Positions 29,033 through 43,460 of a DNA stretch of 64,000 nt are shown in pieces. Source of the stretch: a virus; the IMG/VR virus record IMGVR_UViG_3300046471_000128, positions 32,001 to 96,000 of that record; one strand, 5' to 3'. A model generated the notes under the pieces. It worked only from the letters and a program-made list of their open reading frames with translations, was not told the origin of the DNA and ran no database searches. The position numbers and the translations under genes are program-made. Within the stretch, counting starts at the first letter, position 1. Each line of letters begins with the position of its first letter.

Positions 29033-29470
29033 TTAATCAAAAACGATCTCTTCGAGAGAAATCTCCGGCTCGGGAAAAGAAAGCTCCGGGAGAGAAACCA
29101 GCTGCGGCTCGGGTAAGTTATGGCTTAGTTCCTGAGCCTCGACTTCCACAGTGACCTGCGGCTCGGGAAGAATTTCGGCCGAACCCACCGCGGCTCCCGG
29201 ACCCGGTGCCGGCCGACCGGTGCCGCCGACCACGGCCCGTCCGAGATCCGTCGGCCGAACCAGACGTCGCAGGCGGCCGCGCCGGTGCTCGGCGAAGCTG
29301 CGGTCGATCAGACCGTGCCGCTCGATCGCGCGCAGGCTGAACTGCAGGCTCTCCTTGGTCGTCTTGTAGGTGAGGCGCTCAAGAAGCTGGTCGAGGTCAA
29401 CCGCGGCGCCCTCAGAGGCCCCGGCGACGACCACCTTCATGATCTCGATCTGCTTGATGGTCAGATTCAT
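29033..29470 (-). CDS. Winged-helix DNA-binding protein with acidic PEP-repeat tail
   Basis: LTIKQIEIM..DLDQLLERL..SLQFSLRAIERHGLIDR..PTDLGRAVV wHTH pattern. Confidence 0.75.
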   Translation of the reverse strand: MNLTIKQIEIMKVVVAGASEGAAVDLDQLLERLTYKTTKESLQFSLRAIERHGLIDRSFAEHRRGRLRRLVRPTDLGRAVVGGTGRPAPGPGAAVGSAEILPEPQVTVEVEAQELSHNLPEPQLVSLPELSFPEPEISLEEIVFD

Positions 29471-29688
29471 CGCGGCCGGCAGCACCAGAAGTGATCGCCC
29501 TGCTCCGAGTGCGCGAGCGCCCGGCTGACCGTCGCGTATTCGTCCGCGCTGGGCGTGCGCACCCAGATCACGAAGTCATAGGCGCGGCCGCGGGCCTGGT
29601 CGGCCTCGTCGATCGATTCCATCGTCCAGGGCGAGAGGGCGCCCTTCGTGCCCACGATAGCGAGCGTCTTGGCGGTCGTCTTGATCAT
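29467..29688 (-). CDS. Hypothetical protein
   Basis: ATGA-coupled on both sides within the operon. Confidence 0.55.
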   Translation of the reverse strand: MIKTTAKTLAIVGTKGALSPWTMESIDEADQARGRAYDFVIWVRTPSADEYATVSRALAHSEQGDHFWCCRPR

Positions 29689-30674
29689 GCTGTCTCCTGA
29701 GTGGCGAGTAAGTCGAGGCGCAACGGTTCGTCGACGCCTTGGTTTTCGAAAGCGGCGAGCGGGATGCGCGCCGGCAGCGGGCGCATCGCCTGTGTGTTCG
29801 GATCCCAGTCGGGGTTGGTCCAGGCGGCATACACGGTCGCGCCGAACACGAGCTGCTGGGTCTGTTTGAGGAGATACCCGAGCTCCATCGTCTCGACGCG
29901 GCTGGTGCCGTTTAGCCGGTTGTCGCCCGACTTCTCCATCGAGCTGTTGCGGTAATAGAAGGCTCGGAGCTCCTTCAACGTGTGCTCGCGCAGGTAATCG
30001 GGCATCGCCTCGATCTCCGCCTTGATCGCCACGTAGTCGTAGGCCGGGCTCTTGAAGTGGCGCGCGAAGAACGCCAGGCCCGACTCGAACGCCGGCGCCG
30101 ACTTCGGCTTCACGAAGCGCATGCCGGCCTTGATCGAGAACGGGTTGTAGCGGCTCATCGAGCTGCGGCTCTCCACATACCGGAAGCCCATCAGCCGGTA
30201 GCCGATGTTCTTGAAGCGGTAGGCAATGCCGCCGCCCCGATACATCGTGTCGAGCACCGTGCGTGAGGACAGGATCAGGTTCTTGTTGATCCAGGCCATG
30301 CGCTGCACGTTGATGAGACGCGTGTCGCGGCCGTTCTGGTTCGGCCGCATGTGCGGGAACACCTGATTGCGCCCGGAATCGAGCGGCTTGGGCACCGTGA
30401 ACACCATCACGCCGATCGTGAGCGGCGGATTCTCGCCGTCGTCGATCACCAGGCGCACGTAGCGCGGGCCGATGCCGTTCTGGCTCGCCTTGTAGTGGAG
30501 CTCATGCAAGAGCTGCCAGTCCTCCAGCGTGCCGCGCTCGACATACATGTGCTTCACGAGCGACAGGGGGCGCGTGCCGGCCGCCGGGTCACGCCAGGCG
30601 ATGATCGGGCTGTCCGGATCGTCCGAGGCCGTGATCGGCCCGGCAAGGTTCAGGGCGGAGGCCGGCGCGTTCAT
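29685..30674 (-). CDS. GNAT-like acetyltransferase (ABC-ATPase-associated type)
   Basis: LHELHY; SRTVLDTMYRGGGIA acetyl-CoA-binding motif; MSRYNPFSIKAGM; start ATG 30674. Confidence 0.75.
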   Translation of the reverse strand: MNAPASALNLAGPITASDDPDSPIIAWRDPAAGTRPLSLVKHMYVERGTLEDWQLLHELHYKASQNGIGPRYVRLVIDDGENPPLTIGVMVFTVPKPLDSGRNQVFPHMRPNQNGRDTRLINVQRMAWINKNLILSSRTVLDTMYRGGGIAYRFKNIGYRLMGFRYVESRSSMSRYNPFSIKAGMRFVKPKSAPAFESGLAFFARHFKSPAYDYVAIKAEIEAMPDYLREHTLKELRAFYYRNSSMEKSGDNRLNGTSRVETMELGYLLKQTQQLVFGATVYAAWTNPDWDPNTQAMRPLPARIPLAAFENQGVDEPLRLDLLATQETA

Positions 30675-31000
30675 TCGAAATCCAGCCCGTCGGTGATGAC
30701 GTAGTTGGCCGCGAGCCACTCCTTGATCTGCGCCTTGGTGCGTGCCCCGACGAACTGGCTCCTGACGACGGTGTTCTGGAGCACCCGCACGTTCGGCACG
30801 TTGCGCACGCCAAGCGTCTGCAGCTCGGCTTCCGAGAAGTCGGTCACGCAAAGCTCGTGGTAGCCGAAGCCATAGTCGGCCTTGAGCGCCTGGAGCGCGG
30901 GCTTCACCACCTTGCAGGGGCCGCACCACGGCGCCGTGAAGATCACGACCTGCGGGCGGTGGGAGGAATCAACGAGTGCTGCGTCGTATTGCGGTTTCAT
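30671..31000 (-). CDS. Thioredoxin
   Basis: FTAPWCGPCK active site; GVRNVP. Confidence 0.9.
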   Translation of the reverse strand: MKPQYDAALVDSSHRPQVVIFTAPWCGPCKVVKPALQALKADYGFGYHELCVTDFSEAELQTLGVRNVPNVRVLQNTVVRSQFVGARTKAQIKEWLAANYVITDGLDFE

Positions 31001-31716
31001 CAGGCCATCCGTTTCAAAAGTTCAAATGCTTCGTCGCGAGTCATCGCGCGATGCCCCTCTGCCGCGTCAGCAAGCTCGCGGTGGGCTTCGATGCGTAACT
31101 TCTCCCGGTAACGCTTCTCGATGTAGAGAGACGGCTGGAGGTCTTCCACGAGGTCGAGGTGGGTCGTTGCGACGATCACCGTCGCATTGACCTTGCGGGC
31201 GGTCTTCTGCAGCGCGAACGCGATCACCTTGGCGGCGGTCCGGTCAAGCACCGCCATGAACTCGTCGGCGACCCAGACGTCGGCCTGGCTCTCGATGGCT
31301 TTGGCGAGCTTGAAGCGGTAGCGCTGGCCGTCAGAGAGCTCGCCGGGCTTACGAATGAAGAGGTAGGCGTCGTTGAGGCCGGCGATCGACAGGAGGCGAA
31401 TCGCGTCGTTGGTCGAGGTGCCGATCTGGTCGATCAGCGGCAGGTCGGGGTCGAGCGCCACCTCGTCGAGGTTGGCGACCTTCTGCCCTTCGGCAGCCAT
31501 CTGGTGCGCGAGCTCGCGCAGGAGCAGCGACTTGCCCGAGCCCGACTGGCCGGTGATGTAGACGACATCGCCCCGCACCACGTCGAGGTCGAGCTTGTCG
31601 AAGATCACGAATTCCTTGTCGTCCAGGCCCAGGCCGAACGCTTCAGCGACTTCGACGACGCGCTGGCTGCGGGCCACGCGCGTGTGGAATCGCTTGTCGA
31701 TGGTGTAGATGCTCAT
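31000..31716 (-). CDS. Soluble ABC-family ATPase (no permease partner)
   Basis: GQSGSGKS Walker A, LSDGQ signature, VADEF Walker B, TTH switch. Confidence 0.9.
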   Translation of the reverse strand: MSIYTIDKRFHTRVARSQRVVEVAEAFGLGLDDKEFVIFDKLDLDVVRGDVVYITGQSGSGKSLLLRELAHQMAAEGQKVANLDEVALDPDLPLIDQIGTSTNDAIRLLSIAGLNDAYLFIRKPGELSDGQRYRFKLAKAIESQADVWVADEFMAVLDRTAAKVIAFALQKTARKVNATVIVATTHLDLVEDLQPSLYIEKRYREKLRIEAHRELADAAEGHRAMTRDEAFELLKRMA

Positions 31717-32045
31717 GCTGGGTATGTCGGGTAGTGGCTATTGAGGCGGGAGAACCAGTCCCAGTAGCCGAGGTTGTCTTGCCAGAAGGCGCACAGGCCG
31801 TTTGCCGTGAGCGTGGTGAAGTCCTCTTCCGTGCTGGAGTTCTCCAGCCCGTAGACCCAATGGATCGCGTGCAGGCACTCGTGCAGGAAGGTGTTCGCGA
31901 GCTTCTGGGGCGTCATGCCGGGCTGCAGTCGGATGCGCTGGCCGATCGTGTTGCAGTGGCCGAACTCACGGTTGCCCTCGGCGTCGTGCTGGCTCATCAG
32001 CTCCACGACGAACCAGTAGTTGCCTACGCGCACCGCGCGGGGCAT
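31713..32045 (-). CDS. HExxH zinc metallopeptidase-like protein
   Basis: TFLHECLHAI followed by EEDF. Confidence 0.7.
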   Translation of the reverse strand: MPRAVRVGNYWFVVELMSQHDAEGNREFGHCNTIGQRIRLQPGMTPQKLANTFLHECLHAIHWVYGLENSSTEEDFTTLTANGLCAFWQDNLGYWDWFSRLNSHYPTYPA

Positions 32046-32088
32046 GTCCTTGTAAGGATCAAAAACGGCGATATCAGTCACGGGTAAC

Positions 32089-32730
32089 TTATTCCAAGGT
32101 TTGGAGGAAGGTGGACAGCGCGTCGGCGCCGGCAAGCCCGGTGACAGCCTGGGCGCGCGCCATGAAGCGCACGATGTGGATCTCGTCGGCGCCTGAGACG
32201 TCCTTGAAGCCGAACACCTTCGCGAGCGGCACGCGGCGCGCGCTCACCTCGTCGGCTTTGGCGTGCGCGGCCTCTTCCTGCATCTCGACGGCGACCGCGA
32301 CGTCCGGCACGAAGGCCGCGTCGTTCAGCTCGCCGAGGTCGGCCATCGAGAACTCGAGCTCCTTCACATCGAAAATGCCGCTCAGCAGGCCCTCAATGCC
32401 CTCGATCTCGTCGCGGAACATCATCGTGTCGATGCCGCCCTCGTTCGTGCGGTTGTCCGCCAGGCGCAGCGCCCGCTTCTGCTCATCGGTCAGGCCCGAC
32501 AGCACGACCACCGGCACTTCGGTGATTGAGAGCTTGATCGCCGCCAGGCGCCGGCCGTGGCCGGCGATGATCTCGTTGTTCTCATCGATCACGATCGGCT
32601 GGGTCCAGCCGAACTGCTGGATCGACTCGACGATCTTGGCGACCTGCGCGTCGTCGTGTTTCTTGACGTTCTTCGCGTAGGGCACGAGCGCGGCGACGGC
32701 GCGTCGCTCTTCGGTGCGGGCGGGATTCAT
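32089..32730 (-). CDS. ParB/Srx N-terminal domain protein
   Basis: LVPYAKN..SIQQFGWTQPIVID..IIAGHGRRLAA..LRLADNR. Confidence 0.9.
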   Translation of the reverse strand: MNPARTEERRAVAALVPYAKNVKKHDDAQVAKIVESIQQFGWTQPIVIDENNEIIAGHGRRLAAIKLSITEVPVVVLSGLTDEQKRALRLADNRTNEGGIDTMMFRDEIEGIEGLLSGIFDVKELEFSMADLGELNDAAFVPDVAVAVEMQEEAAHAKADEVSARRVPLAKVFGFKDVSGADEIHIVRFMARAQAVTGLAGADALSTFLQTLE

Positions 32731-32945
32731 GCGGCCTCCGGGTGTTCGAAGCGCACGCACGCGGCGGTCTTGTGGACCTTGAACCCGCCGATCCCGCAGC
32801 GCAGGTTCGTCTGGTTGACGTAGACGCTGCCACCGAAGGCGGCCTTAACCGTCACTTCCTCGAACTCGAAATGGCGGCAGCTGCCGCAGTTGTTCGGCGC
32901 GCGGCTGTAGTGCTGCGCGGCCTTGGCTTCGCTTTGTTTGCTCAT
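32727..32945 (-). CDS. Small Cys-rich protein
   Basis: CGSCRHF..C..C; translationally coupled. Confidence 0.65.
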   Translation of the reverse strand: MSKQSEAKAAQHYSRAPNNCGSCRHFEFEEVTVKAAFGGSVYVNQTNLRCGIGGFKVHKTAACVRFEHPEAA

Positions 32946-33217
32946 GCTGCTTGCAGCTCCTTCTCTTCAATGGCTGGCTCAAGTGCGTCAGGAATGCACT
33001 CGGCAGGCAGCGGGGTTTGGATCTTGCGGAAAAACCGCACGACGGCGGCCTTGCGCTGGGAAAGCTTGTCGTCGAGGTCGTCATCCGGCTCGTATTCGTC
33101 GCCGTTGTCGCAGTTCTCGCAGATGGCTGGCTCCCGGTTGTGGAAGTAGCAGCTCTGGCACTCTGGGAAAAGGAACTCGGAGCGCGGGATGCGCGCAAAA
33201 CCCGTCGGGCGTGTCAT
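32942..33217 (-). CDS. Small zinc-finger-like protein
   Basis: CQSC..CENC with acidic tail; ATG 33217. Confidence 0.6.
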   Translation of the reverse strand: MTRPTGFARIPRSEFLFPECQSCYFHNREPAICENCDNGDEYEPDDDLDDKLSQRKAAVVRFFRKIQTPLPAECIPDALEPAIEEKELQAA

Positions 33218-33576
33218 ACCGTGATCCAGTCGTCCGCGAGCATGTCGAGGTTGGTCGGAAACCAGCCCGACCAGCTGGCGCCGTCCGTCTCGCACTTGAA
33301 CAACCCATCGACGATCGCCAGTGTGTAGGTGCGCGTGAAGCCCGTTTTCCAGCCCACGCGAGAGACGCGCAGGCCCGTCTTCAATGCCTCCAGCGCCATG
33401 CCGAAGCTCATGCCGACGGCCGGCCGGTAGGCTTTCTCGAAGACCGCCTTGGGTGACCAGCTGATGTAGCCGTCCTCGTAGCGAACTGAGTAGCCCTCTT
33501 CGGCGTTGCCCGTGACCGGGTTGATCGCGGCGAGGGGCTCCGCGTGGATGATCTTGCTGCCGATGTATCGGTTCAT
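33214..33576 (-). CDS. DUF2829 / Tad2-like signalling-nucleotide sponge
   Basis: MSFGMALEALKTGLRVSRVGW...WFPTNLDMLADDW plus N-terminal YIGSK..GYSVRYEDGYISWSPKAVFEKAY. Confidence 0.7.
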   Translation of the reverse strand: MNRYIGSKIIHAEPLAAINPVTGNAEEGYSVRYEDGYISWSPKAVFEKAYRPAVGMSFGMALEALKTGLRVSRVGWKTGFTRTYTLAIVDGLFKCETDGASWSGWFPTNLDMLADDWITV

Positions 33577-34235
33577 TTGTATGCCTTCATGAGATCGACG
33601 AAGGCGTTGCCCGCGTTCGTCATGGAGTCTTCGGTGGTGAACCCTTGCTCGCGCTGGCGGCGCTCGATCGCGGAGGTGATCCAGGCGACGTCTTCGACCG
33701 GCACCTTGAAGCGCATCACCTGATGGGTGGCGCCCAGGCCCGCGCCGGACAGATCAGGCATTTCGGTCTGATCCAGCTGGTCAAGCTCGTCGATGTCTAT
33801 ACTTGACGCTGCCAGAATCGTTTCGAGTTCGGTGTCGGTGTAAGGCATGAACAGGGCGATGTCTTCGGTGCCGAGTTCCTTGAGCAAGCGCGAGAGCGCA
33901 AGCGTGTCGTCTTCGCCGTAGCGGCCGTTGTCGACCAGGCCGATCTCCTTCGCCGTGGTGTCCGAGATCGGTCCCACATCGACGATGGGCACTTCGGTGT
34001 AGCCAAGGCGCTGCGCGGCTTCCCAGCGGTGCTGACCGCCGAGGATCTGGTAACCGGTGCCGTCTGGGTGCGGGCGCACGACGATCGGCTTGTAAACGCC
34101 GAACCGCTTGATACTGATGTCCAACTTGTCCTCATTTTCGGGAGCGACATAGTTGGTGTTCCAAGGGTTCGGGCGCAGACTTGCAACTGACACCTTGCCC
34201 TGTGCGGGGTAGATCGAGGATGGCGAAGCAGCCAT
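33573..34235 (-). CDS. Second ParB/Srx domain protein
   Basis: LRPNPWNTN..SIKRFGVYKPIVVR..ILGGQHRWEAA. Confidence 0.88.
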   Translation of the reverse strand: MAASPSSIYPAQGKVSVASLRPNPWNTNYVAPENEDKLDISIKRFGVYKPIVVRPHPDGTGYQILGGQHRWEAAQRLGYTEVPIVDVGPISDTTAKEIGLVDNGRYGEDDTLALSRLLKELGTEDIALFMPYTDTELETILAASSIDIDELDQLDQTEMPDLSGAGLGATHQVMRFKVPVEDVAWITSAIERRQREQGFTTEDSMTNAGNAFVDLMKAYK

Positions 34236-34297
34236 AATGCACTCACACGTAATAAGTTACCGCTTACTATAGCGATGGAACTCCTATAAGGCAAGAA

Positions 34298-36028
34298 ATG
34301 ACGACTCCCATTACCCTCGCCGCAGGTGCGGTGAACGCCAAACTGATCGGCGCGCCGCGCGAAGCGGCGCTGCTCGTGCGCGACAAGCTCTCCTACCTGG
34401 TGGACGGCGCGAGCTACTCGCAGGCGTTCAAGGGCACCTCGTGGGACGGCACGTCAAGCTTCTACGACTTCTCGACCGGCATGTTTCCGGCGGGTTTCGT
34501 CTACAAGGTCTATTCGACGCTGCTGAAAGCCGGCTACCGGGTCAACCTCGTGAGGAAGGAAGCACCGCCGCCGCTGGGCCCGGAGCGCCCCGTGGTCGAC
34601 AGCTTCGGCTACGACCCGCGCTACGCCTATCAGCCCGAGGTGGCCGACAAGCTCGTCAAGCACCGGCAGGTGATCGCCCGCGTCGCGACGGGCGGGGGTA
34701 AATCCCGGATTGCCCGCATCTGCTACAAGCGCATCGACCGGCCGACGCTCTTTCTGACCACCCGGGGCATCCTGATGTATCAGATGGGCGAAGCCGTCGA
34801 AGAGAACCTCGGCGAGCGCGTGGGCGTCGTGGGCGACAGCCAGCGGGACTTCTCCCGCAAGTTTACGCTCGGGATGGTGCAGACGATTAGCCAGGCGATC
34901 GACAAGTGGACCGACGACGGGGAGCTCCTCGCCTACATCAAGAACCGGGATGCGGCCGAAGACCGCGAGGTCGTGAAGCTGCAGACGCGGCTCAAGAAGC
35001 AAAAGCTGCCGCTCGGCCAGGTCGCCGACGCCACCACCGCGCTCAGGAAGACGCTCGAAGCGCAGCGCCCCGCCGACGCGCAGGTCGTGGCCGACATCCA
35101 GGCGAAGGTGCGGGATCACAACCGCAAGCGCGAGGAAATGATCGCCTTCCTGGCGAAAATTGAATTCGTTATTCTCGAGGAAGCGCATGAGGCGTCCGGC
35201 GAGGGCTTCTACGAGATCATGCGGCACTGCGTGAACGCCCACTACCGGTTGGCACTCACCGCCACGCCGTTCATGAAAGACAGCCCCGAAGCGAACATGC
35301 GGCTCGAGGCGTGCTCCGGGCCCGTGGCGATCACGGTCACTGAGAAGCAGCTGATCGACCTCGGCGTGCTTGCGCGGCCGTTCTTCAAGTTCGTGCGGCT
35401 GCAGAACGCGGCGCCCTCGTATGTCGAGACGGTCGAGAGCAAGGGAATCACGCGCCAAGTCACGCACCGGCTGTTCCGCTCGACCCCGTGGCCGAAATGC
35501 CTCGAGATCGGCGTGGTCCACAACGAGGAGCGCAACCGCGCGATCGTCTATGAGGTGAGCCGCGCGAAGCAATACGGGCTGCCGTCGATGATTCTGGTCG
35601 GCCGCCAGGAGCACGGCAAGAAGCTCGTGGAGATGCTCACGCAGGCGGGCGTGCGCTGCGCATTCATCTTCGGTGAGCACAACCAGAAGGAGCGCAAGGC
35701 CGCGCTCAACGCGCTCGCACAGGGCAAGATCGACGCGCTGATCGGCTCGACCATCCTCGACGTGGGCGTCGATGTGCCCGCCGTCGGCATGATCGTGCTC
35801 GCGGGCGCGGGCAAAGCCGAGGTCCAGGCCCGCCAGCGCATCGGCCGGGGTCTGCGCGCGAAGAAGAAGGGGCCGAACGTTGCGTTCGTGGTCGATTTCA
35901 TCGAAGCAGCCAACAGCACGCTGCGGGACCACCAGAACGAGCGCCTGTCGATCATTCAGAGCACGCCGGGCTTTGCCGAGAACATCGTGAGCGACTTCGA
36001 CTACTCGATTTTCAGGGAGGCGGCGTGA
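34298..36028 (+). CDS. Superfamily 2 DNA helicase
   Basis: ATGGGKS, LEEAH, LTATP, ILDVGVDVP, QRIGRGLR. Confidence 0.92.
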   Translation: MTTPITLAAGAVNAKLIGAPREAALLVRDKLSYLVDGASYSQAFKGTSWDGTSSFYDFSTGMFPAGFVYKVYSTLLKAGYRVNLVRKEAPPPLGPERPVVDSFGYDPRYAYQPEVADKLVKHRQVIARVATGGGKSRIARICYKRIDRPTLFLTTRGILMYQMGEAVEENLGERVGVVGDSQRDFSRKFTLGMVQTISQAIDKWTDDGELLAYIKNRDAAEDREVVKLQTRLKKQKLPLGQVADATTALRKTLEAQRPADAQVVADIQAKVRDHNRKREEMIAFLAKIEFVILEEAHEASGEGFYEIMRHCVNAHYRLALTATPFMKDSPEANMRLEACSGPVAITVTEKQLIDLGVLARPFFKFVRLQNAAPSYVETVESKGITRQVTHRLFRSTPWPKCLEIGVVHNEERNRAIVYEVSRAKQYGLPSMILVGRQEHGKKLVEMLTQAGVRCAFIFGEHNQKERKAALNALAQGKIDALIGSTILDVGVDVPAVGMIVLAGAGKAEVQARQRIGRGLRAKKKGPNVAFVVDFIEAANSTLRDHQNERLSIIQSTPGFAENIVSDFDYSIFREAA

Positions 36029-37204: not shown

Positions 37205-37266
37205 CGTTTGGATCTGCCGCGTTGCCTATAATTATAAATATGACATAACCATAGGGTCGCATAACA

Positions 37267-37551
37267 ATGACCGATCGCCTTCGCACCGCCATCGCCCTCA
37301 CCGACACCTCGCGGGAGCGCCTCGCACGGATGGCCGAGGTCGCCGGGCTCTCCCAGAACGCCACTCTCGAGTCGATTATCCTCGGCATCACCGACGACGA
37401 ACTGCGCACGATTGCCGCCCGGGGCAACGTCGTGGTGAAGGCAGAGAAACGGGAGCGTCTCGCCCAGAAGCGGGCCATTCGCGAGAAGCTCGCCGCGCTC
37501 ACGCCGGCCGAGCAGGAGCGTCTTTTCAAACTAGCCAAGGACGAAAAATGA
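37267..37551 (+). CDS. Ribbon-helix-helix-like DNA-binding protein
   Basis: RTAIALTDTSRERLARMAEVAGLSQNATLESII. Confidence 0.6.
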   Translation: MTDRLRTAIALTDTSRERLARMAEVAGLSQNATLESIILGITDDELRTIAARGNVVVKAEKRERLAQKRAIREKLAALTPAEQERLFKLAKDEK

Positions 37552-38051
37552 GCCTTTATTCCGAGGTGATGGACTACGCGAAGGCCAACCTGCCCGAGAT
37601 CGCGGGTGACATCGACGTCACCAGTTACATCGTCGCGGTGGCCGAGCTGATGCGCCGGATCAACTACTGCCCGAACGCCGCGGACCTGGGCGACACGCAC
37701 AAGTCTTGGGCCTGGCAGTTGAAGGAGCCGATCAAAGACCCGAAGGCGGCGCGGCGCACGTATCGGCGGTTCGCCGAGGCGATGAACGCGGACATGGTGA
37801 AAGCGCTCAAGCACACGCTGGAGCTGCGCGCGGCGAAGAACGCGGGCCTGCCGCCGCCGGCACCGCCTGTCCGGTTGGGTGAGGATGGCGACACCGCGCT
37901 GCCAGTGCTAAGCCCGGCAGGGGCGCTCGAACACACGGTGGATGACGGGCCGGTGATGGTGGTCGCGCCCGTCGATGAGGCGATTGAGGCGATCGTGGGC
38001 AGGTTGCTCGACGAGCAGCCGCTCGACAATGAGGCGTGGGCCGCGTGGTGA
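37548..38051 (+). CDS. Hypothetical protein
   Basis: ATGA-coupled ORF. Confidence 0.65.
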   Translation: MSLYSEVMDYAKANLPEIAGDIDVTSYIVAVAELMRRINYCPNAADLGDTHKSWAWQLKEPIKDPKAARRTYRRFAEAMNADMVKALKHTLELRAAKNAGLPPPAPPVRLGEDGDTALPVLSPAGALEHTVDDGPVMVVAPVDEAIEAIVGRLLDEQPLDNEAWAAW

Positions 38052-38087
38052 GATAGAATCGCGCACCAATCATCGGGGGAATCAAAA

Positions 38088-38402
38088 ATGAAGAAATGGG
38101 GAATGATGCTGTTGCTGGCGGTCGCAGGTAGCGCGCATGCGTATTCAGAAGGGTCGGCGGAGGAGCTCACGAAGCGCGTTCGCGTGTGCAAGGTCTACGC
38201 CGACCTCGGCGATCTGTATTACCGGATGGCGCTGCAGGGGAAGAAGCCGACCGCGCAGAAGGACGACTGGGCCGAGCCGATGCGCCAGCACATCGAGGAT
38301 GAGATTTTCGGGAACGTTGCCTCGTATGACCGGCAGTCGGCAGCAGAGATGGCAGGCACTTACTGCCTTGACAACATCGTGCGCCTGTCGCACGGCGCTT
38401 GA
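38088..38402 (+). CDS. Exported hypothetical protein
   Basis: Sec signal peptide MKKWGMMLLLAVAGSAHA; two Cys. Confidence 0.7.
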   Translation: MKKWGMMLLLAVAGSAHAYSEGSAEELTKRVRVCKVYADLGDLYYRMALQGKKPTAQKDDWAEPMRQHIEDEIFGNVASYDRQSAAEMAGTYCLDNIVRLSHGA

Positions 38403-38737
38403 TCGACGGGCACGGACGGTAGCTGCGGGGCGCGCCAGCGCCCCTAGCGCCGTCTGCCTGGGCCCGCAGGGCCGCGAGGGTGCGATTCCCCATGTGGACA
38501 CACTCAAAGCCCCACAGCCCCTTCCCCACGTCCCACCTTCCACTTTCCCGCTGCCCCACTCCCCGCTTTGCCACGGCCCTATAAGGATCTCGGATTCGCC
38601 GAGGCCCGGCTGTATAAGGATCGGGTCTGGATCGGAAAAAAATTTCCAACGAGGCCCCACCACTATTGCGCGCCGTTCTAAGACCACCGACGTGCCGCAT
38701 GGTCGGTGATCAGTGGGCGGGGCGGGGTCGGTGCGTC

Positions 38738-38757
38738 CGCCCATCGTTAGATGGGCG
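38738..38757. other. Hairpin at the left edge of the HGGM-free island
   Basis: CGCCCATC GTTA GATGGGCG. Confidence 0.55.
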
Positions 38758-38771
38758 AACTATGACGATAG

Positions 38772-38960
38772 TTAGGTTAGCGTATCAATCGACAGACTGA
38801 ACCGGTCGATTGCATGCGCGTGCATATCGCTCTGTTCGTAAGCGCGCGAATCGTAGCGCGTGGGTTGAAACACTGCATCGAATGCATCGAAGGTTTCACT
38901 GTGCGCACGTTCCCCGTGCTGGGCAATGCGGGCAAAATGAGCGCTCTGCAAGGTTTTCAT
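38772..38960 (-). CDS. Small hypothetical protein in the motif-free island
   Basis: 62-aa ORF starting MKTLQ, downstream of a sigma70 promoter. Confidence 0.55.
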   Translation of the reverse strand: MKTLQSAHFARIAQHGERAHSETFDAFDAVFQPTRYDSRAYEQSDMHAHAIDRFSLSIDTLT

Positions 38961-39024
38961 GGTCTGGTAGGTCGTCAGGTAGCAGGTAGAGAACGCGGGC
39001 GCTTTGTGCGCCCGCTATGCGCGT

Positions 39025-39207
39025 TTAGCGCGACGCGTTCAAGTGAGCACGGGCACGCGCGCGACGCATGCGGGCACGCGTTGCCCGTGTGCGGTGCGGT
39101 GCGTTATTGATGGGTTCGGGCAATGCGTGAAAAGCGAGCACGACAGCAAGCGCGACCAGCAAGACAGACAGCAAGGGTAAAAGGTATTGATTCATCGTTA
39201 GCATCAA
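39025..39207 (-). CDS. Possible small membrane protein
   Basis: Single hydrophobic helix; weak support. Confidence 0.35.
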   Translation of the reverse strand: MMLTMNQYLLPLLSVLLVALAVVLAFHALPEPINNAPHRTRATRARMRRARARAHLNASR

Positions 39208-39261
39208 TCGAAGGGTTAGAAACCCGGGCGCACCGTGCGCCCGGTAAAAGTCACAGGTTCC

Positions 39262-39933
39262 TTATTCTTTCTTCGCGCCCTTTACGAGTGAGAGGGTATC
39301 GCTAGAAGCTTGTTCTACCATCTTTGCAATTGCAGCGACAAAGGGAGATTTAGCATTCACTTCGAGCACTGCGCTTTTACCCTTAACCTTAACCATTTGA
39401 CCCATATTGAGATACTTACAGAAACCATTCACACCGAACGAGCGTGAAACCTTGGTTTCTTCGCTAGTAACACCGACGCCCGGTATCACGCGACGCAGTT
39501 TCGAAACCAGCGACAGGTCTTTAACGATATCGCTAGTCGATTCGTCTCCCTTGCCCGTGTTAGCAAAGTAAAGCGCTTCGCGCGACACTGCGCCCGCATG
39601 CACTGCGCTAAGCAGGGAAAGCGCGGTAACACCGTCAAGCTTGCTGTAGTCTTTCGCATGCAGACAAGCGAAAAATTCTGATACGCGCTTGCAAGCTTTC
39701 ACGCCCATGTTATCTGCAATGGTTGCAAGAAACGTTGTTTCGTCAATGCGCGCTTTTTTCAGCATGCCCGAAGCGAAAACACAAAGCGCGTCATCCCAAT
39801 ATGCGAGAGCGGTTTTGATATCGTCTTGCAAGTGAGCGCTGCCCGTCTTTGTGTTGTAACGATCGTTTGCGCGGTTGAATGCGATTGAAACATTTTCGAG
39901 CGTGAAAATCGTTTCTTTAACTTGTGCGTTCAT
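39262..39933 (-). CDS. Hypothetical protein, candidate immediate-early gene (possible wHTH-like C-terminus)
   Basis: ATG 39933 with AAGGT RBS; canonical sigma70 promoter; atypical codon usage lacking HGGM. Confidence 0.8.
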   Translation of the reverse strand: MNAQVKETIFTLENVSIAFNRANDRYNTKTGSAHLQDDIKTALAYWDDALCVFASGMLKKARIDETTFLATIADNMGVKACKRVSEFFACLHAKDYSKLDGVTALSLLSAVHAGAVSREALYFANTGKGDESTSDIVKDLSLVSKLRRVIPGVGVTSEETKVSRSFGVNGFCKYLNMGQMVKVKGKSAVLEVNAKSPFVAAIAKMVEQASSDTLSLVKGAKKE

Positions 39934-39993
39934 TTTGATTACCTTTGATTGAGTGTTGGTCTGTTTGCCCGGTCTCGCTGAACCGGTAGAGAA

Positions 39994-40022
39994 ATAGTAA
40001 CCGCACACCTAGCCCGGTGCAA
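39994..40022 (-). promoter_or_regulatory. Sigma70-type promoter TTGCAC-N17-TACTAT
   Basis: -35 at 40022-40017 and -10 at 39999-39994. Confidence 0.65.
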
Positions 40023-40260
40023 TAAGTATGCGAAAAAAAACGTATGGCTTTTCTATTCGCGTTGTTTTTCAGAGGAGTGCTTGAAAGGTGTTTTTGACTG
40101 TGCTATTTGCGCGGGCGCACCTGCATGCATGCTCAATAGGGAGCGCGCATATCGAATGCTTAGATAGGGATACGATGTATCGTGGATCTGATTAATCGAT
40201 CATAGGGAGTTCGAACTATGTGATTGTTCGTGGACCCGATTAACCGGTCGTTAGCGGAGC

Positions 40261-40320
40261 GACGCTTCGTGGCCCGACGCTTCGTGGCCCGATGCTTCGT
40301 GGAGCGATGATTCGTGGAAC
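40261..40320. repeat. Four tandem 15-bp repeats GA(C/T)G(C/A)TTCGTGG(A/C)NC
   Basis: Read directly; degenerate copies near 40180 and 40228. Confidence 0.85.
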
Positions 40321-40535
40321 CGATGACCACGGCGCCCAGCGGGCGCCGGTGCCCGAACCGCGCCATCCCTGCCCTGCCCGCAGCCGGTGCCGGTTTCTGC
40401 CAATCCGCCCTTACCTGGCCCGGGTTTTTCCAAAAATTGCCACGGATTTGAACGGAACCCGGGCGCCCGCCCCACAGCAAGCCACGGCACGCCATCCGAG
40501 CGCTTACGGGCACCCAGCCACGGCAGTGTAGAACG

Positions 40536-40568
40536 AAAAAAGGGCTGGCACCCGAAGGTGGCAGCCCA
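40536..40568 (-). terminator. Intrinsic terminator with cUUCGg loop
   Basis: GGGCTG-GCACC cgaa GGTG-GCAGCCC with T-run on the minus strand. Confidence 0.65.
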
Positions 40569-40628
40569 AAAGTCTTACGTATCACAGTAGGACTCACTCA
40601 GGTAAATCGAGGCGAAGCATACAGCAGG

Positions 40629-40796
40629 TCAGTCCCAGCGTGCGCGCTCTTCAACAAACGGACGACGGCGGCGCGTGGTGAGCGTGCGGAGTTCCCGCTG
40701 CTCTTCGAATTCTTGGAAAAGCTCCAGCTCCGTGAGCTCCGCATCGAGGTGGTCATCGGACAGCAACGATTCGACATGGATCTGACGGACTTGCAT
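40629..40796 (-). CDS. Small acidic hypothetical protein
   Basis: AGGAGAG RBS before MQVRQ; preceded by the repeated promoter element. Confidence 0.6.
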   Translation of the reverse strand: MQVRQIHVESLLSDDHLDAELTELELFQEFEEQRELRTLTTRRRRPFVEERARWD

Positions 40797-41191
40797 GGTT
40801 CTCTCCTGGGTAGGTCGGTGCAGCGCTCGTTGCGCTGCGACAGAAGAGAGTTTGACGGGCAAGTCTTGGATCACGCGTGCTGCGCTGCAGGCTCTTTATA
40901 GCCCCGCCACGGCCCCTGCAAGCAGCAGGTGCGCGTGAGCACACCCGCTGGCCCTGCTAGGGCGACCGATGGCGTCGACGCGCTTCGACACTGCGGCGGT
41001 GCTTTGCACGGCTCAGACGACAGACGAATGAATCAAGGAACAACACGAGCAGGAAGATCAAGATAAACAGCGCACCGTGGATCGGAATCAGCCACAGCCC
41101 GCCTTCATAGAGCAGCTTCATGGCTGGTCCCTGTGAGTGGTCAAGTGATTATCGTATTGACGCACTCACGGACCCGGGCGCTAGGAAGTCA

Positions 41192-41581
41192 TCAGGCCAG
41201 GTGGATCAGGTGTCCAAGGGCCGGCATCAGCTTGGCGACGTGGTGCGAGAGGCTCATCACGGAGAACCCGTCATCGAAGCCGATCACCGCAAGGGCCAGC
41301 GCACCGAAGGCGGCGCCCCGCTCGATCAGCTTGCCGCCGCGGCCCGCCATCCACTGCAGCGCCGCGTTCGAGACGGTCGGCTGCTTGCGCTCCGGCGCAT
41401 ACAGATTAACGTCTACCACCACCTCTTCAATGCGCGTCGCCGAGATCACCTCGATGCCATCGCGTTTATATGCCTGCACCATTGCCGCTACTACCCCTTC
41501 GATGGCCGCATTGTCGGAGCTCGTCGACACCGTAAATAGCTCGCCTTCCTGGTCTACACACTCGAATGTGATCCTGCTCAT
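41192..41581 (-). CDS. Hypothetical protein
   Basis: RBS and ORF with C-terminal hydrophobic segment. Confidence 0.6.
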   Translation of the reverse strand: MSRITFECVDQEGELFTVSTSSDNAAIEGVVAAMVQAYKRDGIEVISATRIEEVVVDVNLYAPERKQPTVSNAALQWMAGRGGKLIERGAAFGALALAVIGFDDGFSVMSLSHHVAKLMPALGHLIHLA

Positions 41582-42058
41582 TTCCCTACGACTCCAGATT
41601 CTTATTGATGAAGTGCCGATTGGATGCGGAGACGTTGGTGTCCCCTGCGCATGGGTCGAGATTGTCCATCAAACGTTTGCTGTCCAACAGATCAGGATTC
41701 AGCGTCATCTGCTAAGCAATCTTTTCCGATTCCTTATCTGGCAAGGGTTTTCACTGACATAAGTGTCAGATACATCGCTCCGCCATCGGTAAAAAATGTT
41801 AAAAAGGTAACATTTTGTAGCCGGAGGGCAACACTTAGTCGGTAAAAAGACCGGGATACCCAATTTGGCAGTAGATATCCCTTGCGTCCGCGTTAGAAGT
41901 GGTGTCGGCGTGCGCGTCGCTCTTCAGCCCGTTGCGTCTGACGCGCCATGCGATACGCTTCCCGCGGCTCAGCCCCTGCCGAGCGTGCACCCAGATAGAC
42001 CGCCCGCTCGATGAACGTGCGCAGCGTCCCGGCAGCGTAGTGTGTGGTTGCTGGCATC

Positions 42059-42235
42059 TCAGTGACCCCGCATCAGGTTGGCGATACGCTTGGGCATCGC
42101 ACAGCGCTTCAGACGGGCGGCGCGCTTCAGACCACCCGTGAAGAGGTCGATCAAGAACCAGAATGCGGCACCTATCACGACCGCGGCGAGAATCACGAGC
42201 AGCACGGCAAAGAACCACTGCAACTGTTCGAACAT
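42059..42235 (-). CDS. Small membrane protein (58 aa)
   Basis: GAGGT RBS; MFEQLQWFFAVLLVILAAVVIGAAFWFLI; repeated promoter element upstream. Confidence 0.55.
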   Translation of the reverse strand: MFEQLQWFFAVLLVILAAVVIGAAFWFLIDLFTGGLKRAARLKRCAMPKRIANLMRGH

Positions 42236-42394
42236 GGGACACCTCGTTGATGGGAGAGACTTCAGTCTCCCGACGAGGCTTCGGATGACACCCGGATACG
42301 TTTGCCCTCACGTGGCCGTGTGATATCACCTGGCCGTGGTAACCCAGGCTGCTTTCGGTCCTCCGATACACTATCCGCACCGGGAGGGCCATCT

Positions 42395-42706
42395 ATGACG
42401 TTGCTCGACTATCTGTCGATCGCCGCCACGCTTATAGGCTTTGCCATCTTTGTCACCCAACTTGTGCTGCTCGAACGCGAGCGCCGGATAACGCTTGCTC
42501 GATTGACCAAGTGGGCTTTGCTCCACGCATCGATTGTCGGCACCGGTCTGAGCGTCCTGATGCTCTCTAAATCATCTCCTTGGCTCATCGAAGATCCTGA
42601 CGCCTCTTCTCCCGTGCGTCTAAACATGCTCTCCACGAAGGATTTCATCGCCTTTGCGGTCATCTATATCTTCGTCGCGTGGCGCTCGTTGAAGTCATTG
42701 GAGTAG
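42395..42706 (+). CDS. Membrane protein with three predicted TM helices
   Basis: GGAGG RBS before ATG 42395; hydrophobic helices; lower GC. Confidence 0.55.
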   Translation: MTLLDYLSIAATLIGFAIFVTQLVLLERERRITLARLTKWALLHASIVGTGLSVLMLSKSSPWLIEDPDASSPVRLNMLSTKDFIAFAVIYIFVAWRSLKSLE

Positions 42707-42771
42707 GCAATCCACGGCGTGCCACGGCAACGAGCACACAAAGAACAACGGGCACACGGCCCGTCATCGGA

Positions 42772-43056
42772 TCAACCGAGGTCGCTGAAGTCGTGCCCGG
42801 AGCAATCGATGATCTCGACACGGCGCACCTGCGCAACCCGGCACTCACCGACGGGGATCATCATGAGGTGCGCCATCAGACGCCCGAACTGCGCTTCGGA
42901 CAGAAAGACAGGCGTCATGTGATACATCGAGCGGAGGTGCGCGTCGACAAAATCCTTCGACTCTTTGAGGCCCATCCCGGTGGTCGCACGGATCAGCTTG
43001 ATGAGCGGAATGCGATCGGTCGTGTTCGATTCGAGATAGGCTTTGATCTTCTTCAT
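42772..43056 (-). CDS. Protein with ribosomal L7/L12 C-terminal-like motif
   Basis: RIPLIKLIRATTGMGLKESKDFVD resembles bL12 [24 protein letters not shown]. Confidence 0.65.
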   Translation of the reverse strand: MKKIKAYLESNTTDRIPLIKLIRATTGMGLKESKDFVDAHLRSMYHMTPVFLSEAQFGRLMAHLMMIPVGECRVAQVRRVEIIDCSGHDFSDLG

Positions 43057-43119
43057 GCTGCGCTCCCTGCGCTGGTTGGTGAGCTTCTATTTTCTCGACC
43101 AACACATGGCCCAGACTTG

Positions 43120-43460
43120 GATACTTATAGGGCGCCAAGGGACTACTTTCCATAGGGCCACCGTCCGCGGCGGGCCAATCTTATACGTGGCAGGTGCCTA
43201 TACTTATACGTAGCACGGGCCAATCTTATAGAGCGCCAGCCGATACTTATACGAGCCACGGCGCGCCTTACGGGCCTGCAGCCACGGCAATTTGGCCAAG
43301 GATTTGAACGGATTCTGGGAGGGTGGCACGCCGCGGCCCTTGCTGGGCTTGGCTTTGAGCGAACATGGCTCGGGTTGGCTTGGCGAGTTCCCATAAGAAA
43401 ATTCTGTGGCGTGTCGATTGAAAGACAATGAAGCGCCGCAACAGCATGGAGCTCTTATAG
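43120..43460. repeat. Phased CTTATA(C/G) repeat array
   Basis: CTTATA at 43124, 43180, 43203, 43225, 43246 and 43454. Confidence 0.8.

What the first reader, a model, noticed from the sequence alone, without database searches (positions are those of the whole stretch)
29033..43460. Candidate undescribed system: a motif-specific DNA mark or reader that times gene expression
Inference joining separate observations: (a) a packaging-adjacent ParB/ParB/ABC-ATPase/thioredoxin/GNAT operon of the kind proposed to modify phage DNA; (b) an HGGM-free island with a host-type promoter; (c) early promoters that use HGGM in place of -35; (d) HGGM-pair arrays bordering the island. Model 1: virion DNA is modified (possibly acylated) at HGGM/KCCD, the unmodified island is transcribed first, and its product reads or removes the mark to activate the HGGM promoters. 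Model 2: no chemistry; a single low-specificity DNA-binding protein coats or activates HGGM sites and is excluded from the island. Neither model is proven by sequence.
Basis: inference. Interest (0 to 1): 0.85.

Follow-up and report, generated by a model that had tools for sequence, protein, structure and literature searches.

The report
GG-word-free early gene in phage-plasmids
One small, host-promoter-driven gene unit of this 107-kb phage-plasmid is completely free, on both DNA strands, of the very common word HGGM, and relatives keep the same unit free of a GG-centred word whose flanking rule differs by clade, which points to an undescribed sequence-specific enzyme (most likely a DNA modification) that the first-expressed genes must avoid.

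Summary
Window 38737..40044 (1308 bp) holds one HGGM/KCCD site where about 65-80 are expected. It is the only such gap in the 107.5-kb genome. It spans one unit: a sigma70-like promoter, three minus-strand genes and terminators. Shuffling synonymous codons never reproduces the gap, so selection acts on the DNA word itself.

All nine homologous viral loci are void or strongly depleted. At least 15 more distant loci (GC 40-64%) carry the same HGGM void. The SSU5 enterobacterial clade purges a different set (roughly VGGB). Pseudomonas and Rhizobium relatives purge every GG/CC. Some early units here lack HGGM on the sense strand only.

- The operon beside the terminase does contain a GNAT-fold protein, with Mu Mom, NAT10 and TmcA among its structural matches, plus an ABC ATPase, a thioredoxin and two ParB_N proteins.
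- The island is HGGM-free behind a host-type promoter.
- The early promoters carry two KCCD words.
- Repeat arrays border the island.

The link between them is still inference. My best reading (about 0.4) is that a phage-made strand-specific mark at the GG/CC word on virion DNA blocks RNA polymerase, so pre-replicative units are purged. The coating-protein model is unlikely. I found no prior description.

The parts
38737..40044 (.). HGGM/KCCD-free island: 1308 bp, GC 51.7% against 62% for the genome, one site only (TCCT at 39259)
   Evidence: conserved in relatives
39262..39933 (-). Main island gene (223 aa, P0001). No Pfam or PHROG family. The C-terminal half (about residues 94-213) resembles a winged helix. 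GC3 is 0.51 against about 0.8 in other genes.
39025..39195 (-). Small ORF (56 aa, P0002): one hydrophobic helix and an Arg-rich tail. No tblastn match in any of the five relatives; an ORF of similar make-up (hydrophobic helix, basic tail) lies at the same position in G005.
38772..38960 (-). Small acidic, His-rich ORF (62 aa, P0003). tblastn finds counterparts in G001 and G004; ORFs of similar size lie at the same position in G002, G003 and G005.
39994..40022 (-). Sigma70-like promoter of the island: -35 TTGCAC (40022..40017), 17-nt spacer, -10 TACTAT (39999..39994), with an A/T-rich stretch upstream
   Evidence: read; the same TTGCAC-type promoter heads the void of phage nickie
38738..38757 (.). 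Hairpin CGCCCATC-GTTA-GATGGGCG at the downstream edge of the void. Two further hairpins lie at 39223..39244 and 38995..39015 between the island genes.
   Evidence: read
38575..38621 (+). Two tandem boxes GGCYnTATAAGGATC, 33 bp apart, facing into the island from its downstream side. They are conserved in all six close genomes. Probably a face-to-face promoter or an operator pair.
40183..40345 (-). Array of about seven KCCACGA(A/T) boxes, four to five of them at 15-bp spacing, upstream of the island promoter. Arrays lie at the same position in relatives.
45559..46684 (-). Two-gene unit with one HGGM on the sense strand (about 36 expected) but normal KCCD. It runs from promoter 46612..46644 to a hairpin near 45570. 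The G005 orthologue of 45597..46148 keeps the pattern (1 HGGM against 23 KCCD).
41978..42315 (-). Sense-strand-only HGGM gap over the 58-aa membrane-protein gene 42059..42235 and its promoter
50827..51204 (-). Sense-strand-only HGGM gap over promoters 51085 and 51160 and the start of gene 50508..51110
51420..52877 (-). 485-aa early protein (phrog_3932) with sense-strand HGGM depleted: 23 against 47 KCCD here, 7 against 61 in G005
46147..46179 (-). Example of the phage-type promoter ATCCR-N7/8-GCCA-N8/9-GGTCGGG-AnAAT, followed by ATCGCAACC. Other copies: 42264..42296, 43089..43121, 46612..46644, 49375..49407, 51085..51117, 56594..56626, 60023..60055.
29688..30677 (-). GNAT-fold protein (330 aa, phrog_886; JGI calls relatives 'ABC-type ATPase with predicted acetyltransferase domain'). 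81-86% identical in the five close relatives.
30671..31000 (-). Thioredoxin (109 aa)
31000..31716 (-). Soluble ABC-type ATPase (238 aa), among the most conserved proteins of the genome (87-95% identity in relatives)
31713..32135 (-). Small protein with weak SprT/metallopeptidase-like matches, below Pfam cut-offs
32089..32760 (-). ParB_N-domain protein (phrog_930)
33214..33576 (-). Tad2-like (DUF2829) protein
33573..34235 (-). ParB_N-domain protein (phrog_723), first gene of the operon
34298..36028 (+). SF2 (UvsW/ResIII-type) helicase, first gene of the plus-strand operon that converges on the island. The same helicase/ParB divergent layout is seen in SSU5, RHEph10 and ANB28.

Best explanation
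The phage lineage encodes an enzyme that marks DNA at a short GG/CC-centred word. The mark is a base modification or another strand-specific lesion, and in this clade the word is KCCD/HGGM. The best candidate is the conserved operon beside the terminase: two ParB_N proteins, an ABC ATPase, a thioredoxin and a GNAT-fold protein. It would act on DNA that is about to be packaged. A mark on the template strand hinders RNA polymerase, so the units that must be read from incoming, not yet replicated virion DNA have been purged of the word.

The island lies between two face-to-face promoters and is read in both directions, so both strands are purged. Other immediate-early units are purged only on the template strand, which means no HGGM on the sense strand. 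After replication the daughter DNA is unmarked, so the rest of the genome needs no purge.

The island's winged-helix-like protein is probably the first regulator made: a repressor, or an activator of the KCCD-bearing phage promoters.

Shown: the voids, their conservation, their strand pattern, the change of word between clades, and the folds. Inferred: that a mark exists, that the operon writes it, that it blocks transcription, and the timing.
For: 1. Every site is removed, which is what an agent acting site by site would select for. Permuting synonymous codons shows the selection is on the word and not on codon usage.
2. The same word is purged in relatives with GC 40-64%, hence different hosts. 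The word changes between phage clades around a fixed GG/CC core. This fits an agent inherited with the phage whose specificity drifts, as in DNA-modifying enzymes.
3. The voids coincide with transcription units, and outside the island they are confined to the sense strand. That is the pattern expected if only template-strand sites matter. The G005 orthologue keeps it at 56% identity.
4. The island void spans the stretch from the sigma70-like promoter to two conserved inward-facing TATAAG boxes. In the three integrase-type relatives each strand is purged only on its promoter-proximal side.
5. The operon protein has a GNAT fold. Mu Mom (a DNA base acyl-modifying enzyme), NAT10 and TmcA (ATP-dependent cytidine acetyltransferases) are among its matches, and an ATPase gene lies two genes upstream. 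The block is syntenic with the void in every clade examined.
6. The genome has no N6/N4 or C5 methyltransferase and no TGT/DpdA, so no ordinary writer competes.
7. Genome-wide the word is at its expected frequency, so it is not avoided as a restriction site would be.
Against: 1. No modification was observed, and nothing ties the GNAT operon to the word.
2. Known acyl marks do not stop RNA polymerase: Mom's carbamoylmethyl-adenine and N4-acetylcytosine (my knowledge).
3. Three HGGM sites lie within about 30 nt downstream of the putative antisense TATAAG start, and similar sites occur in relatives.
4. The plasmid maintenance genes (ParA, Rep3) are not purged.
5. Neighbouring early genes such as 41192..41581 carry normal HGGM counts.
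6. A second candidate modification module exists (Nmad5, a P-loop kinase, a MazG-like protein and ThyX).
7. The void genes of the nickie and Rhizobium clades show no detectable homology to P0001, so a universal 'reader' is not supported.
Confidence: 0.4

Rival explanations
1. RNA-level avoidance. A sequence-specific endoribonuclease cuts RNA at the GG-centred word. It could be a phage host-shutoff enzyme or a conserved toxin-type RNase. The first phage transcripts are kept free of the word, as with ACA-less mRNAs and MazF, or T4 RegB cutting GGAG.
For: Several units are purged on the sense strand only, over whole units. Removal of every site fits a single cut being lethal to an mRNA. The void genes use no canonical GGAG Shine-Dalgarno sequence.
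Against: The island, the most conserved void, is purged on both strands and across its untranscribed promoter. An antisense RNA that only interferes by polymerase collision would not need to stay intact. No RNase family was found among the proteins scanned.
Confidence: 0.15
2. Escape from duplex DNA cutting by first-entering or first-needed DNA. A nuclease or nickase with a GG/CC-centred site acts early: a host enzyme, or a phage enzyme such as one of the ParB-like nuclease-domain proteins. The segment that must function meanwhile has no sites, as proposed for the EcoRI-free first-step-transfer region of T5. Chlorella-virus Nt.CviPII, which nicks at CCD, shows that such frequent-site enzymes exist.
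For: The void is on both strands and includes the promoter. The island is bounded by repeat arrays that could mark a physical end. Two ParB_N proteins sit beside the GNAT, like a nuclease-modifier pair. Two ATP-dependent ligases are encoded.
Against: A cut anywhere else in the genome would still kill it unless entry is stepwise, and the virion ends are unknown. One-strand voids in other units are not predicted. The assembly is circular, with only a 127-bp assembly overlap.
Confidence: 0.15
3. A DNA-binding protein, possibly P0001 itself, binds the word and silences or blocks transcription wherever it occurs. Its own unit is kept free of sites.
For: P0001 has a winged-helix-like half. The phage promoters and the flanking arrays are built from KCCD-containing boxes. 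A gene that escapes its own product by lacking the target is a familiar logic.
Against: A 4-bp word, or a bare GG in nickie, gives no useful discrimination. The host chromosome holds hundreds of thousands of copies. The same GG/CC core is purged in clades whose void genes show no detectable homology. Strand-specific voids would need a polar block.
Confidence: 0.1
4. Mutational origin. A context-specific deaminase or other mutator acts on transcribed single-stranded DNA and has erased the word.
For: Island GC drops from 62% to 52% and GC3 to 0.51. The voids follow transcription units.
Against: The proteins are under purifying selection (70-76% identity). The purge is complete in several lineages that have diverged a great deal. 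GCG/CGC and GGGC/CGGG are enriched rather than lost. The one-strand voids remove G-words from the sense strand, which is not what C-deamination of the exposed strand would do.
Confidence: 0.05

Closest known systems
Phage Mu Mom (GNAT-fold DNA adenine carbamoylmethyl-transferase)
   Same: GNAT fold: 8bv8_B is among the Foldseek matches (TM 0.49 on the Mom chain). Both are phage genes. Mom targets a short degenerate DNA word that occurs very often (my knowledge).
   Different: No sequence family is shared: there is no Pfam hit. This protein is larger and is encoded near an ABC ATPase, a thioredoxin and two ParB_N proteins. Mom is not known to force any motif-free gene in Mu. The base targeted here would be G or C, not A.
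NAT10 / TmcA (ATP-dependent RNA cytidine N4-acetyltransferases)
   Same: A GNAT domain that works with an ATPase. Structural matches include 9aym_A, 9b0e_A and 2zpa_A. Their consensus site is CCG (my knowledge), which shares the CC core.
   Different: Those enzymes act on RNA, are single polypeptides and carry a helicase-type ATPase. Here the ATPase is a separate ABC-type protein. Nothing shows cytidine acetylation.
T5 first-step-transfer region lacking EcoRI sites
   Same: A local, not genome-wide, absence of a cleavable word in the DNA that is expressed first (my knowledge).
   Different: There a few 6-bp sites of one host enzyme are missing. Here about 65-140 occurrences of a 2- to 4-bp word are missing, the word follows the phage clade rather than the host, and some units are purged on one strand only.
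MazF and ACA-less mRNAs; T4 RegB (GGAG)
   Same: Complete removal of a short word from particular transcripts, and the sense-strand-only voids at 45559..46684.
   Different: The main island is purged on both strands and in its promoter. No RNase was identified.
Chlorella-virus Nt.CviPII / M.CviPII (site CCD)
   Same: A virus-encoded enzyme pair that recognises CCD, nearly the KCCD word found here (my knowledge).
   Different: No C5 methyltransferase is present in this genome. No nickase homologue was identified.
Salmonella phage SSU5 and related phage-plasmids
   Same: Same supergroup. The helicase / ParB / ParB / ABC / GNAT block is syntenic, with the GNAT 38% identical. Genome size, the presence of partition and replication genes, and the nucleotide-metabolism genes are alike.
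   Different: The SSU5 clade purges a different word (about VGGB) from SSU5_120 and its small neighbour. It also carries a DNA methyltransferase, which this phage lacks.

Membership tests
GNAT-superfamily acyltransferases (Mom-like) | GNAT alpha/beta fold | tested here: met
   AlphaFold2 model with pLDDT 86 and pTM 0.77. The listed Foldseek matches are almost all GNAT enzymes, among them Mom 8bv8_B, NAT10 and TmcA, with E-values from 3e-4 to 3e-2.
GNAT-superfamily acyltransferases (Mom-like) | Match to a curated GNAT sequence family | tested here: not met
   No Pfam family at E <= 0.05 for 29685..30650 or for the 414-aa reading. phmmer against PDB sequences found nothing.
GNAT-superfamily acyltransferases (Mom-like) | Acyl-CoA binding and transfer to a DNA base | not testable with these tools
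   Needs biochemistry.
COG2401-type 'ABC ATPase fused to predicted acetyltransferase' | ABC ATPase together with the acetyltransferase-like domain | tested here: met
   ABC_tran, 6.5e-13, for 31000..31716. JGI gives relatives of 29688..30677 that name. Here the two parts are separate genes with a thioredoxin gene between them.
SSU5-supergroup phage-plasmids | Syntenic helicase / ParB / ParB / ABC / GNAT block, and homologues in SSU5-like phages | tested here: met
   tblastn of the GNAT protein finds SSU5, Klebsiella and Escherichia phage-plasmids, nickie, RHEph10 and ANB28. Annotation shows the same block.
SSU5-supergroup phage-plasmids | Plasmid maintenance genes instead of an integrase | tested here: met
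   ParA (CbiA/MipZ) and a Rep_3 initiator at genome 13854..16060. Integrase is absent from G004, G005 and G008 and present in G001-G003. I did not run the integrase family search on this genome itself.
Winged-helix regulators (PadR/MarR/ArsR type), for P0001 | Winged helix-turn-helix fold | tested here: inconclusive
   VIA-align Z of 5.0-6.1 over residues about 94-213; nearly all of the top 50 rows are winged-helix domains, mostly DNA-binding regulators. Z is below the level that excludes a common helical arrangement. Foldseek found nothing. There is no Pfam or PHROG match.
Restriction-site avoidance of the T5 first-step-transfer type | The avoided word is the site of a nuclease met on entry, and the segment enters first | not testable with these tools
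   The host and the virion ends are unknown. Only assembled contigs of the source run are held.
RNase-site-free mRNA (MazF/RegB logic) | Avoidance confined to the transcribed (sense) strand | tested here: not met
   The island is void on both strands. The feature is met only by the secondary units, such as 45559..46684.
Thymidine hypermodification cassette (M6/SN1 type) | Nmad5, 5-hmdU DNA kinase, aGPT-Pplase and a pyrimidine hydroxymethylase together | tested here: inconclusive
   Nmad5 (2.5e-21) and an adjacent P-loop kinase-like protein are present, with a MazG-like protein and ThyX nearby. No aGPT-Pplase was seen among the proteins scanned, and the neighbouring small ORFs have no family. 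The cassette composition is taken from PMC9476957.
DNA methyltransferase or DpdA-type writers | Presence of an N6/N4 MTase, a C5 MTase or a TGT/DpdA homologue | tested here: not met
   Six-frame searches of the whole genome with PF01555, PF00145 and PF01702 found nothing, while the controls responded.

The most novel reading that the evidence does not exclude
SSU5-supergroup phages write a strand-specific covalent mark on a GG/CC-centred word of their packaged DNA with a GNAT/ABC-ATPase/ParB machine. The mark makes virion DNA unreadable to RNA polymerase. The order of gene expression after entry, and perhaps the choice between lytic growth and the plasmid state, is then set by which units are free of the word. 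The mark-free island would encode the first regulator. This would be a new kind of epigenetic timing device whose word evolves with the enzyme.
Probability: 0.3. Interest if true: 0.95.

Novelty: categorically new. Interest (0 to 1): 0.86.

Why it matters
A word that occurs every 15 bp, or in some clades the bare dinucleotide GG/CC, has been removed completely from one transcription unit. This holds in many phages of different hosts, and the word changes with the phage clade. I know of no described enzyme, defence system or regulatory mechanism that predicts this.

The finding makes several questions directly testable:
- whether this large and medically relevant group of phage-plasmids (SSU5, Klebsiella and E. 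coli elements, pHCM2-like plasmids) carries an unknown DNA modification;
- what the widespread 'ABC ATPase plus acetyltransferase' phage operon does;
- whether DNA marks can programme the timing of phage gene expression.

The void also gives a purely computational read-out of an enzyme's specificity in each clade. That read-out could be used to map specificity determinants.

Tried and rejected
Tools and searches that gave nothing:
- Megablast of 29000..44000 against phages found only a 254-bp ParB match.
- The scan of genome contigs for P0001 relatives found none.
- Foldseek of the P0001 model against PDB and BFVD gave no significant match. The ESM Atlas gave only unnamed clusters and a weak DUF3102 lead.
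- No RNA holder was listed among sequencing runs, and only contigs of a rhizosphere metagenome are held. Read laying was therefore not used, and virion ends and expression could not be examined.
- Literature searches for the operon name and for SSU5 DNA modification returned nothing.
- phmmer of the GNAT protein and of 51420..52877 against PDB sequences found nothing.
- hhalign found no significant homology between the P0001 family and the void genes of nickie, RHEph10/RHph_N1_10 or SSU5_120. SSU5_120 shares only a short TQ...L.LC..KG motif.
- Complex prediction was not used: no binding claim is made.

Explanations considered and rejected:
- Codon bias: rejected by permutation.
- Foreign origin of the island: the void is conserved in orthologues.
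- CRISPR PAM avoidance: a CC or NGG PAM could fit nickie but not the H/M or V/B flank rules.
- Type III restriction strand bias, as in T7 and EcoP15I: local one-orientation stretches give no protection while the rest of the genome has both orientations.
- DarT1 ADP-ribosylation of G in single-stranded DNA: no defined motif (PMC11543638), and a sporadically distributed host system would not fix one word across hosts.
- CsrA GGA binding, Rho sites and oxidation-prone GG: these fail because GGC is purged too, and because GGG runs are kept or enriched.
- Gene-content difference between complete-void and staggered-void genomes: the GNAT, ABC, ParB and Nmad5 modules are present in all. Only the lifestyle genes differ.

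Full report
**What the window is.** The window is bases 32001-96000 of a 107,509-bp contig. The contig has 62% GC and a 127-bp end overlap, so it is a circular assembly. Nearly all genes lie on the minus strand.

The gene content is that of an SSU5-type phage-plasmid:
- siphovirus-type tail proteins, a terminase large subunit and a probable portal gene (no Pfam match);
- a DnaE polymerase fused to a UDG-like domain, RecA, a gp32-like protein, CobS/CobT-like proteins, and ParA plus a Rep_3 initiator;
- DnaG, DnaB, PhoH and two ATP-dependent ligases;
- ribonucleotide reductase, SbcCD, RuvC, ThyX, a MazG-like protein, a P-loop kinase and an Nmad5 protein.

tblastn of the GNAT-like protein finds Salmonella phage SSU5, Klebsiella and Escherichia phage-plasmids, Pseudomonas phage nickie, Rhizobium phage RHEph10 and Stenotrophomonas phages at 33-44% identity. 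The source sample is a rhizosphere metagenome.

**The observation.** HGGM and its complement occur about 64 times per kb in the window, which is the frequency expected from base composition. Between 38736 and 40045 there is a single site, TCCT at 39259, just past a stop codon. Local composition predicts about 65 sites. No other two-strand gap in the genome exceeds 191 bp.

Within the island, GGGA, GGGC, NGGT and NGGG are present or enriched, and GCG/CGC is 2.5-fold enriched. The rule is therefore specific: GG followed by A or C is forbidden unless a G precedes it.

The island is one unit, read and translated:
- a sigma70-like promoter TTGCAC-17-TACTAT (40022..39994);
- three minus-strand genes: 39933..39262, 39195..39025 and 38960..38772;
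- hairpins between the genes, and a hairpin at 38738..38757 exactly at the edge of the void.

Shuffling the synonymous codons of the main gene among their own positions gave on average 13.6 HGGM and 6.3 KCCD, and never fewer than 6 and 1, in 2000 trials. The observed counts are 0 and 0. The purge therefore acts on the DNA word in all frames and not on codon choice.

**Conservation in close relatives.** The main protein (P0001) has no Pfam or PHROG family. It has about 18 homologues at 42-76% identity. Nine viral loci were fetched, and five whole relatives (G001-G005, 73-77% nucleotide identity) were retrieved.

Each genome has exactly one large void, at the homologous unit:
- G004 has 1137 bp and G005 has 1703 bp free on both strands. 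L006 and L009 are also complete.
- G001, G002 and G003 have staggered voids. The promoter-proximal part lacks HGGM on the sense strand, and the distal part plus its downstream flank lacks it on the antisense strand.

Complete voids go with ParA and no integrase (G004, G005 and both halves of G008; this genome has ParA and Rep_3 but was not searched for integrase). Staggered voids go with an integrase and no ParA (G001-G003). That amounts to only two to four independent contrasts and is a lead, not a result.

**One-strand voids.** Several minus-strand units in the 40-53 kb region lack HGGM on the sense strand only. The clearest is 46684..45559. It runs from a phage-type promoter to a hairpin, contains two genes, and has one HGGM where about 36 are expected. 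KCCD is normal, and GGGC and CGGG are enriched. The G005 orthologue of 45597..46148 is 56% identical and keeps 1 HGGM against 23 KCCD. The 485-aa protein 51420..52877 has 23 against 47 here and 7 against 61 in G005. Late genes and the ParA/Rep genes show no such bias.

**Promoters and arrays.** On the coding strand a conserved element recurs: ATCCR-N7/8-GCCA-N8/9-GGTCGGG-AnAAT-N6-ATCGCAACC. A loose pattern finds 10 copies, all on the coding strand, against 1-4 on both strands in simulated sequence. It finds 3-6 copies, again all on the coding strand, in each relative. Between the two KCCD words lies an inverted repeat whose sequence varies while its complementarity is kept.

Upstream of the island promoter lies an array of about seven KCCACGA(A/T) boxes. 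At the downstream border two tandem boxes GGCYnTATAAGGATC face into the island. They are conserved in all six genomes. They look like a face-to-face promoter, or an operator pair. On that reading, the two-strand void is the stretch between convergent promoters, and the staggered voids are the promoter-proximal parts of each direction.

**The operon.** From 34235 down to 29033 the genes encode:
- ParB_N (33573..34235), a Tad2-like protein (33214..33576) and a second ParB_N (32089..32760);
- a weak SprT-like protein (31713..32135), an ABC ATPase (31000..31716) and a thioredoxin (30671..31000);
- a 330-aa protein (29688..30677) and two small proteins.

The 330-aa protein has no Pfam match. Its model (pLDDT 86) matches GNAT enzymes almost exclusively, among them Mu Mom, NAT10 and TmcA. 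JGI names its relatives 'ABC-type ATPase with predicted acetyltransferase domain'. It and the ATPase are among the most conserved proteins of the genome. The genome has no N6/N4 or C5 methyltransferase and no TGT/DpdA.

Its link to the void remains inference.

**The island protein.** The AlphaFold2 model is confident (pTM 0.82). Foldseek finds nothing. VIA-align lists winged-helix domains, mostly DNA-binding regulators of PadR, MarR and ArsR type, in nearly all of the top 50 rows for residues about 94-213, at Z 5-6. That suggests a DNA-binding regulator but does not prove it.

**The wider family.** The GNAT alignment retrieved 274 viral loci, of which 80 were kept. At least 15 of them have 50-77% GNAT identity and GC from 40 to 64%. 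They carry an HGGM/KCCD void of 570-1710 bp, about 5-9 kb upstream of the GNAT gene, with GGGM, NGGT and NGGG present. The genes in these voids form a family remotely related to P0001 (hhalign probability 69%, E 4e-5, plus synteny).

SSU5 has no HGGM void. Its syntenic unit (SSU5_120 and a small neighbour) and the orthologous units of three Klebsiella and Escherichia phages lack AGGC, AGGG, AGGT, CGGC, CGGG, CGGT, GGGG and GGGT. The counts are 0, 0, 0 and 1 against about 34 expected in each, while TGGN, CGGA, AGGA and GGGC are present.

Phage nickie has 1137 bp, and phage hairong 1125 bp, without a single GG or CC, against 105-121 per kb elsewhere. The two regions are only about 66% identical. 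RHEph10 and RHph_N1_10 have 973 bp (one site) and 840 bp of the same kind.

The purge is thus a trait of the whole supergroup. It has a constant GG/CC core and clade-specific flank rules. The void genes of the nickie and Rhizobium clades show no detectable homology to P0001.

**Interpretation.** Removal of every site argues for an agent that acts on single sites, that is an enzyme, and not for a coating protein. Constancy of the word across hosts of very different GC, together with its change between phage clades, argues that the agent is inherited with the phage. Voids limited to transcription units, and often to one strand, argue that the damage is to transcription or to the transcript, not to the integrity of the genome.

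A strand-specific mark on virion DNA that stops RNA polymerase when it lies in the template strand accounts for four things:
- the one-strand voids;
- the two-strand void between convergent promoters;
- the staggered voids;
- the absence of any purge in late genes, which can be read from replicated, unmarked DNA.

The GNAT/ABC/ParB operon next to the terminase is the obvious candidate writer. I put this reading at about 0.4.

An RNase explains the one-strand voids but not the two-strand island or its promoter (0.15). A nuclease met by first-entering DNA explains the island but not the one-strand voids, and it needs stepwise entry (0.15). A binding protein is implausible for a 2- to 4-bp word (0.1). 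A mutational origin conflicts with purifying selection and with the enrichment of GC-rich neighbours of the word (0.05).

**Weak points.** No modified base has been seen. Known acyl marks do not block polymerase. A few HGGM sites lie just downstream of the putative antisense start. A second candidate modification module, built around Nmad5, exists.

**Prior knowledge.** I found no description of this feature. Earlier first-stage notes of this scan recorded the same void on this genome and on another genome. Those notes are unchecked and are not independent evidence.

Noticed in passing
window 61800-64000 and L046:3-1034 (genome 93800-96934): A nucleotide-modification-type cluster: an Nmad5 protein (61800..62552), a P-loop kinase-like protein (62539..63165), a MazG-like pyrophosphatase (63165..63833) and ThyX, next to ribonucleotide reductase. 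It resembles part of the thymidine-hypermodification cassette of phages M6 and SN1, but no aGPT-Pplase was seen. It is a second candidate for non-canonical DNA.
   Followed up: partly
L044:4098-7442 (genome, outside the window): The DnaE-type polymerase (1114 aa) carries a C-terminal uracil-DNA-glycosylase-superfamily domain (PF03167, 3e-13). This is an unusual fusion that may relate to uracil or modified pyrimidines in the DNA.
   Followed up: no
genomes G000-G005 and G008: Complete two-strand voids occur in the genomes with ParA and no integrase. Staggered one-strand voids occur in the three genomes with an integrase and no ParA. This is a possible link between the purge and the plasmid lifestyle, with few independent cases.
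   Followed up: partly
window 42264-60055, minus strand: In the phage-type promoters, the inverted repeat between the GCCA box and the -10 element changes sequence from copy to copy but keeps its complementarity (for example CCCGACC/GGTCGGG and CCGGGC/GCCCGG). This suggests a hairpin in DNA or RNA and not a protein-binding palindrome.
   Followed up: no
window 42772-43056, minus strand: A 94-aa early protein whose middle part (IKLIRATTGMGLKESKDFVD) looks like the C-terminal domain of ribosomal protein L7/L12. It has no homologue in the five relatives, and its sense-strand HGGM is nearly absent (2 against 10 KCCD).
   Followed up: no
window 38500-38560: A run rich in C-tracts (CCCCAC, CCCC, TCCC repeats at about 10-bp spacing) lies just outside the downstream TATAAG boxes. 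Similar tracts occur in all relatives. On the other strand it could form a G-quadruplex.
   Followed up: no
L044:8081-8770 (genome): A 229-aa protein with a weak sigma70 region-2 match (E 8e-4). It may be a phage sigma factor for the late genes that carry the 20-bp quasi-palindrome noted by another first-stage reader.
   Followed up: no
viral record behind L008 and L009 (G008, 215,656 bp): One contig holds two different genomes of this phage type, each with its own void island and ParA. It is either a cointegrate or a chimeric assembly.
   Followed up: no
window 33214-33576: A Tad2-like (Thoeris anti-defence 2, DUF2829) gene sits inside the ParB/ABC/GNAT operon. RHEph10 and RHph_N1_10 have a DUF2829 gene in the same block.
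   Followed up: no
void units in window 39933, 46580 and 46111, and L133:6069: Genes inside the voids start without a canonical GGAG-type Shine-Dalgarno sequence. They have AAGGT, AGGGAG or nothing, so their translation start must work differently from that of the late genes.
   Followed up: no
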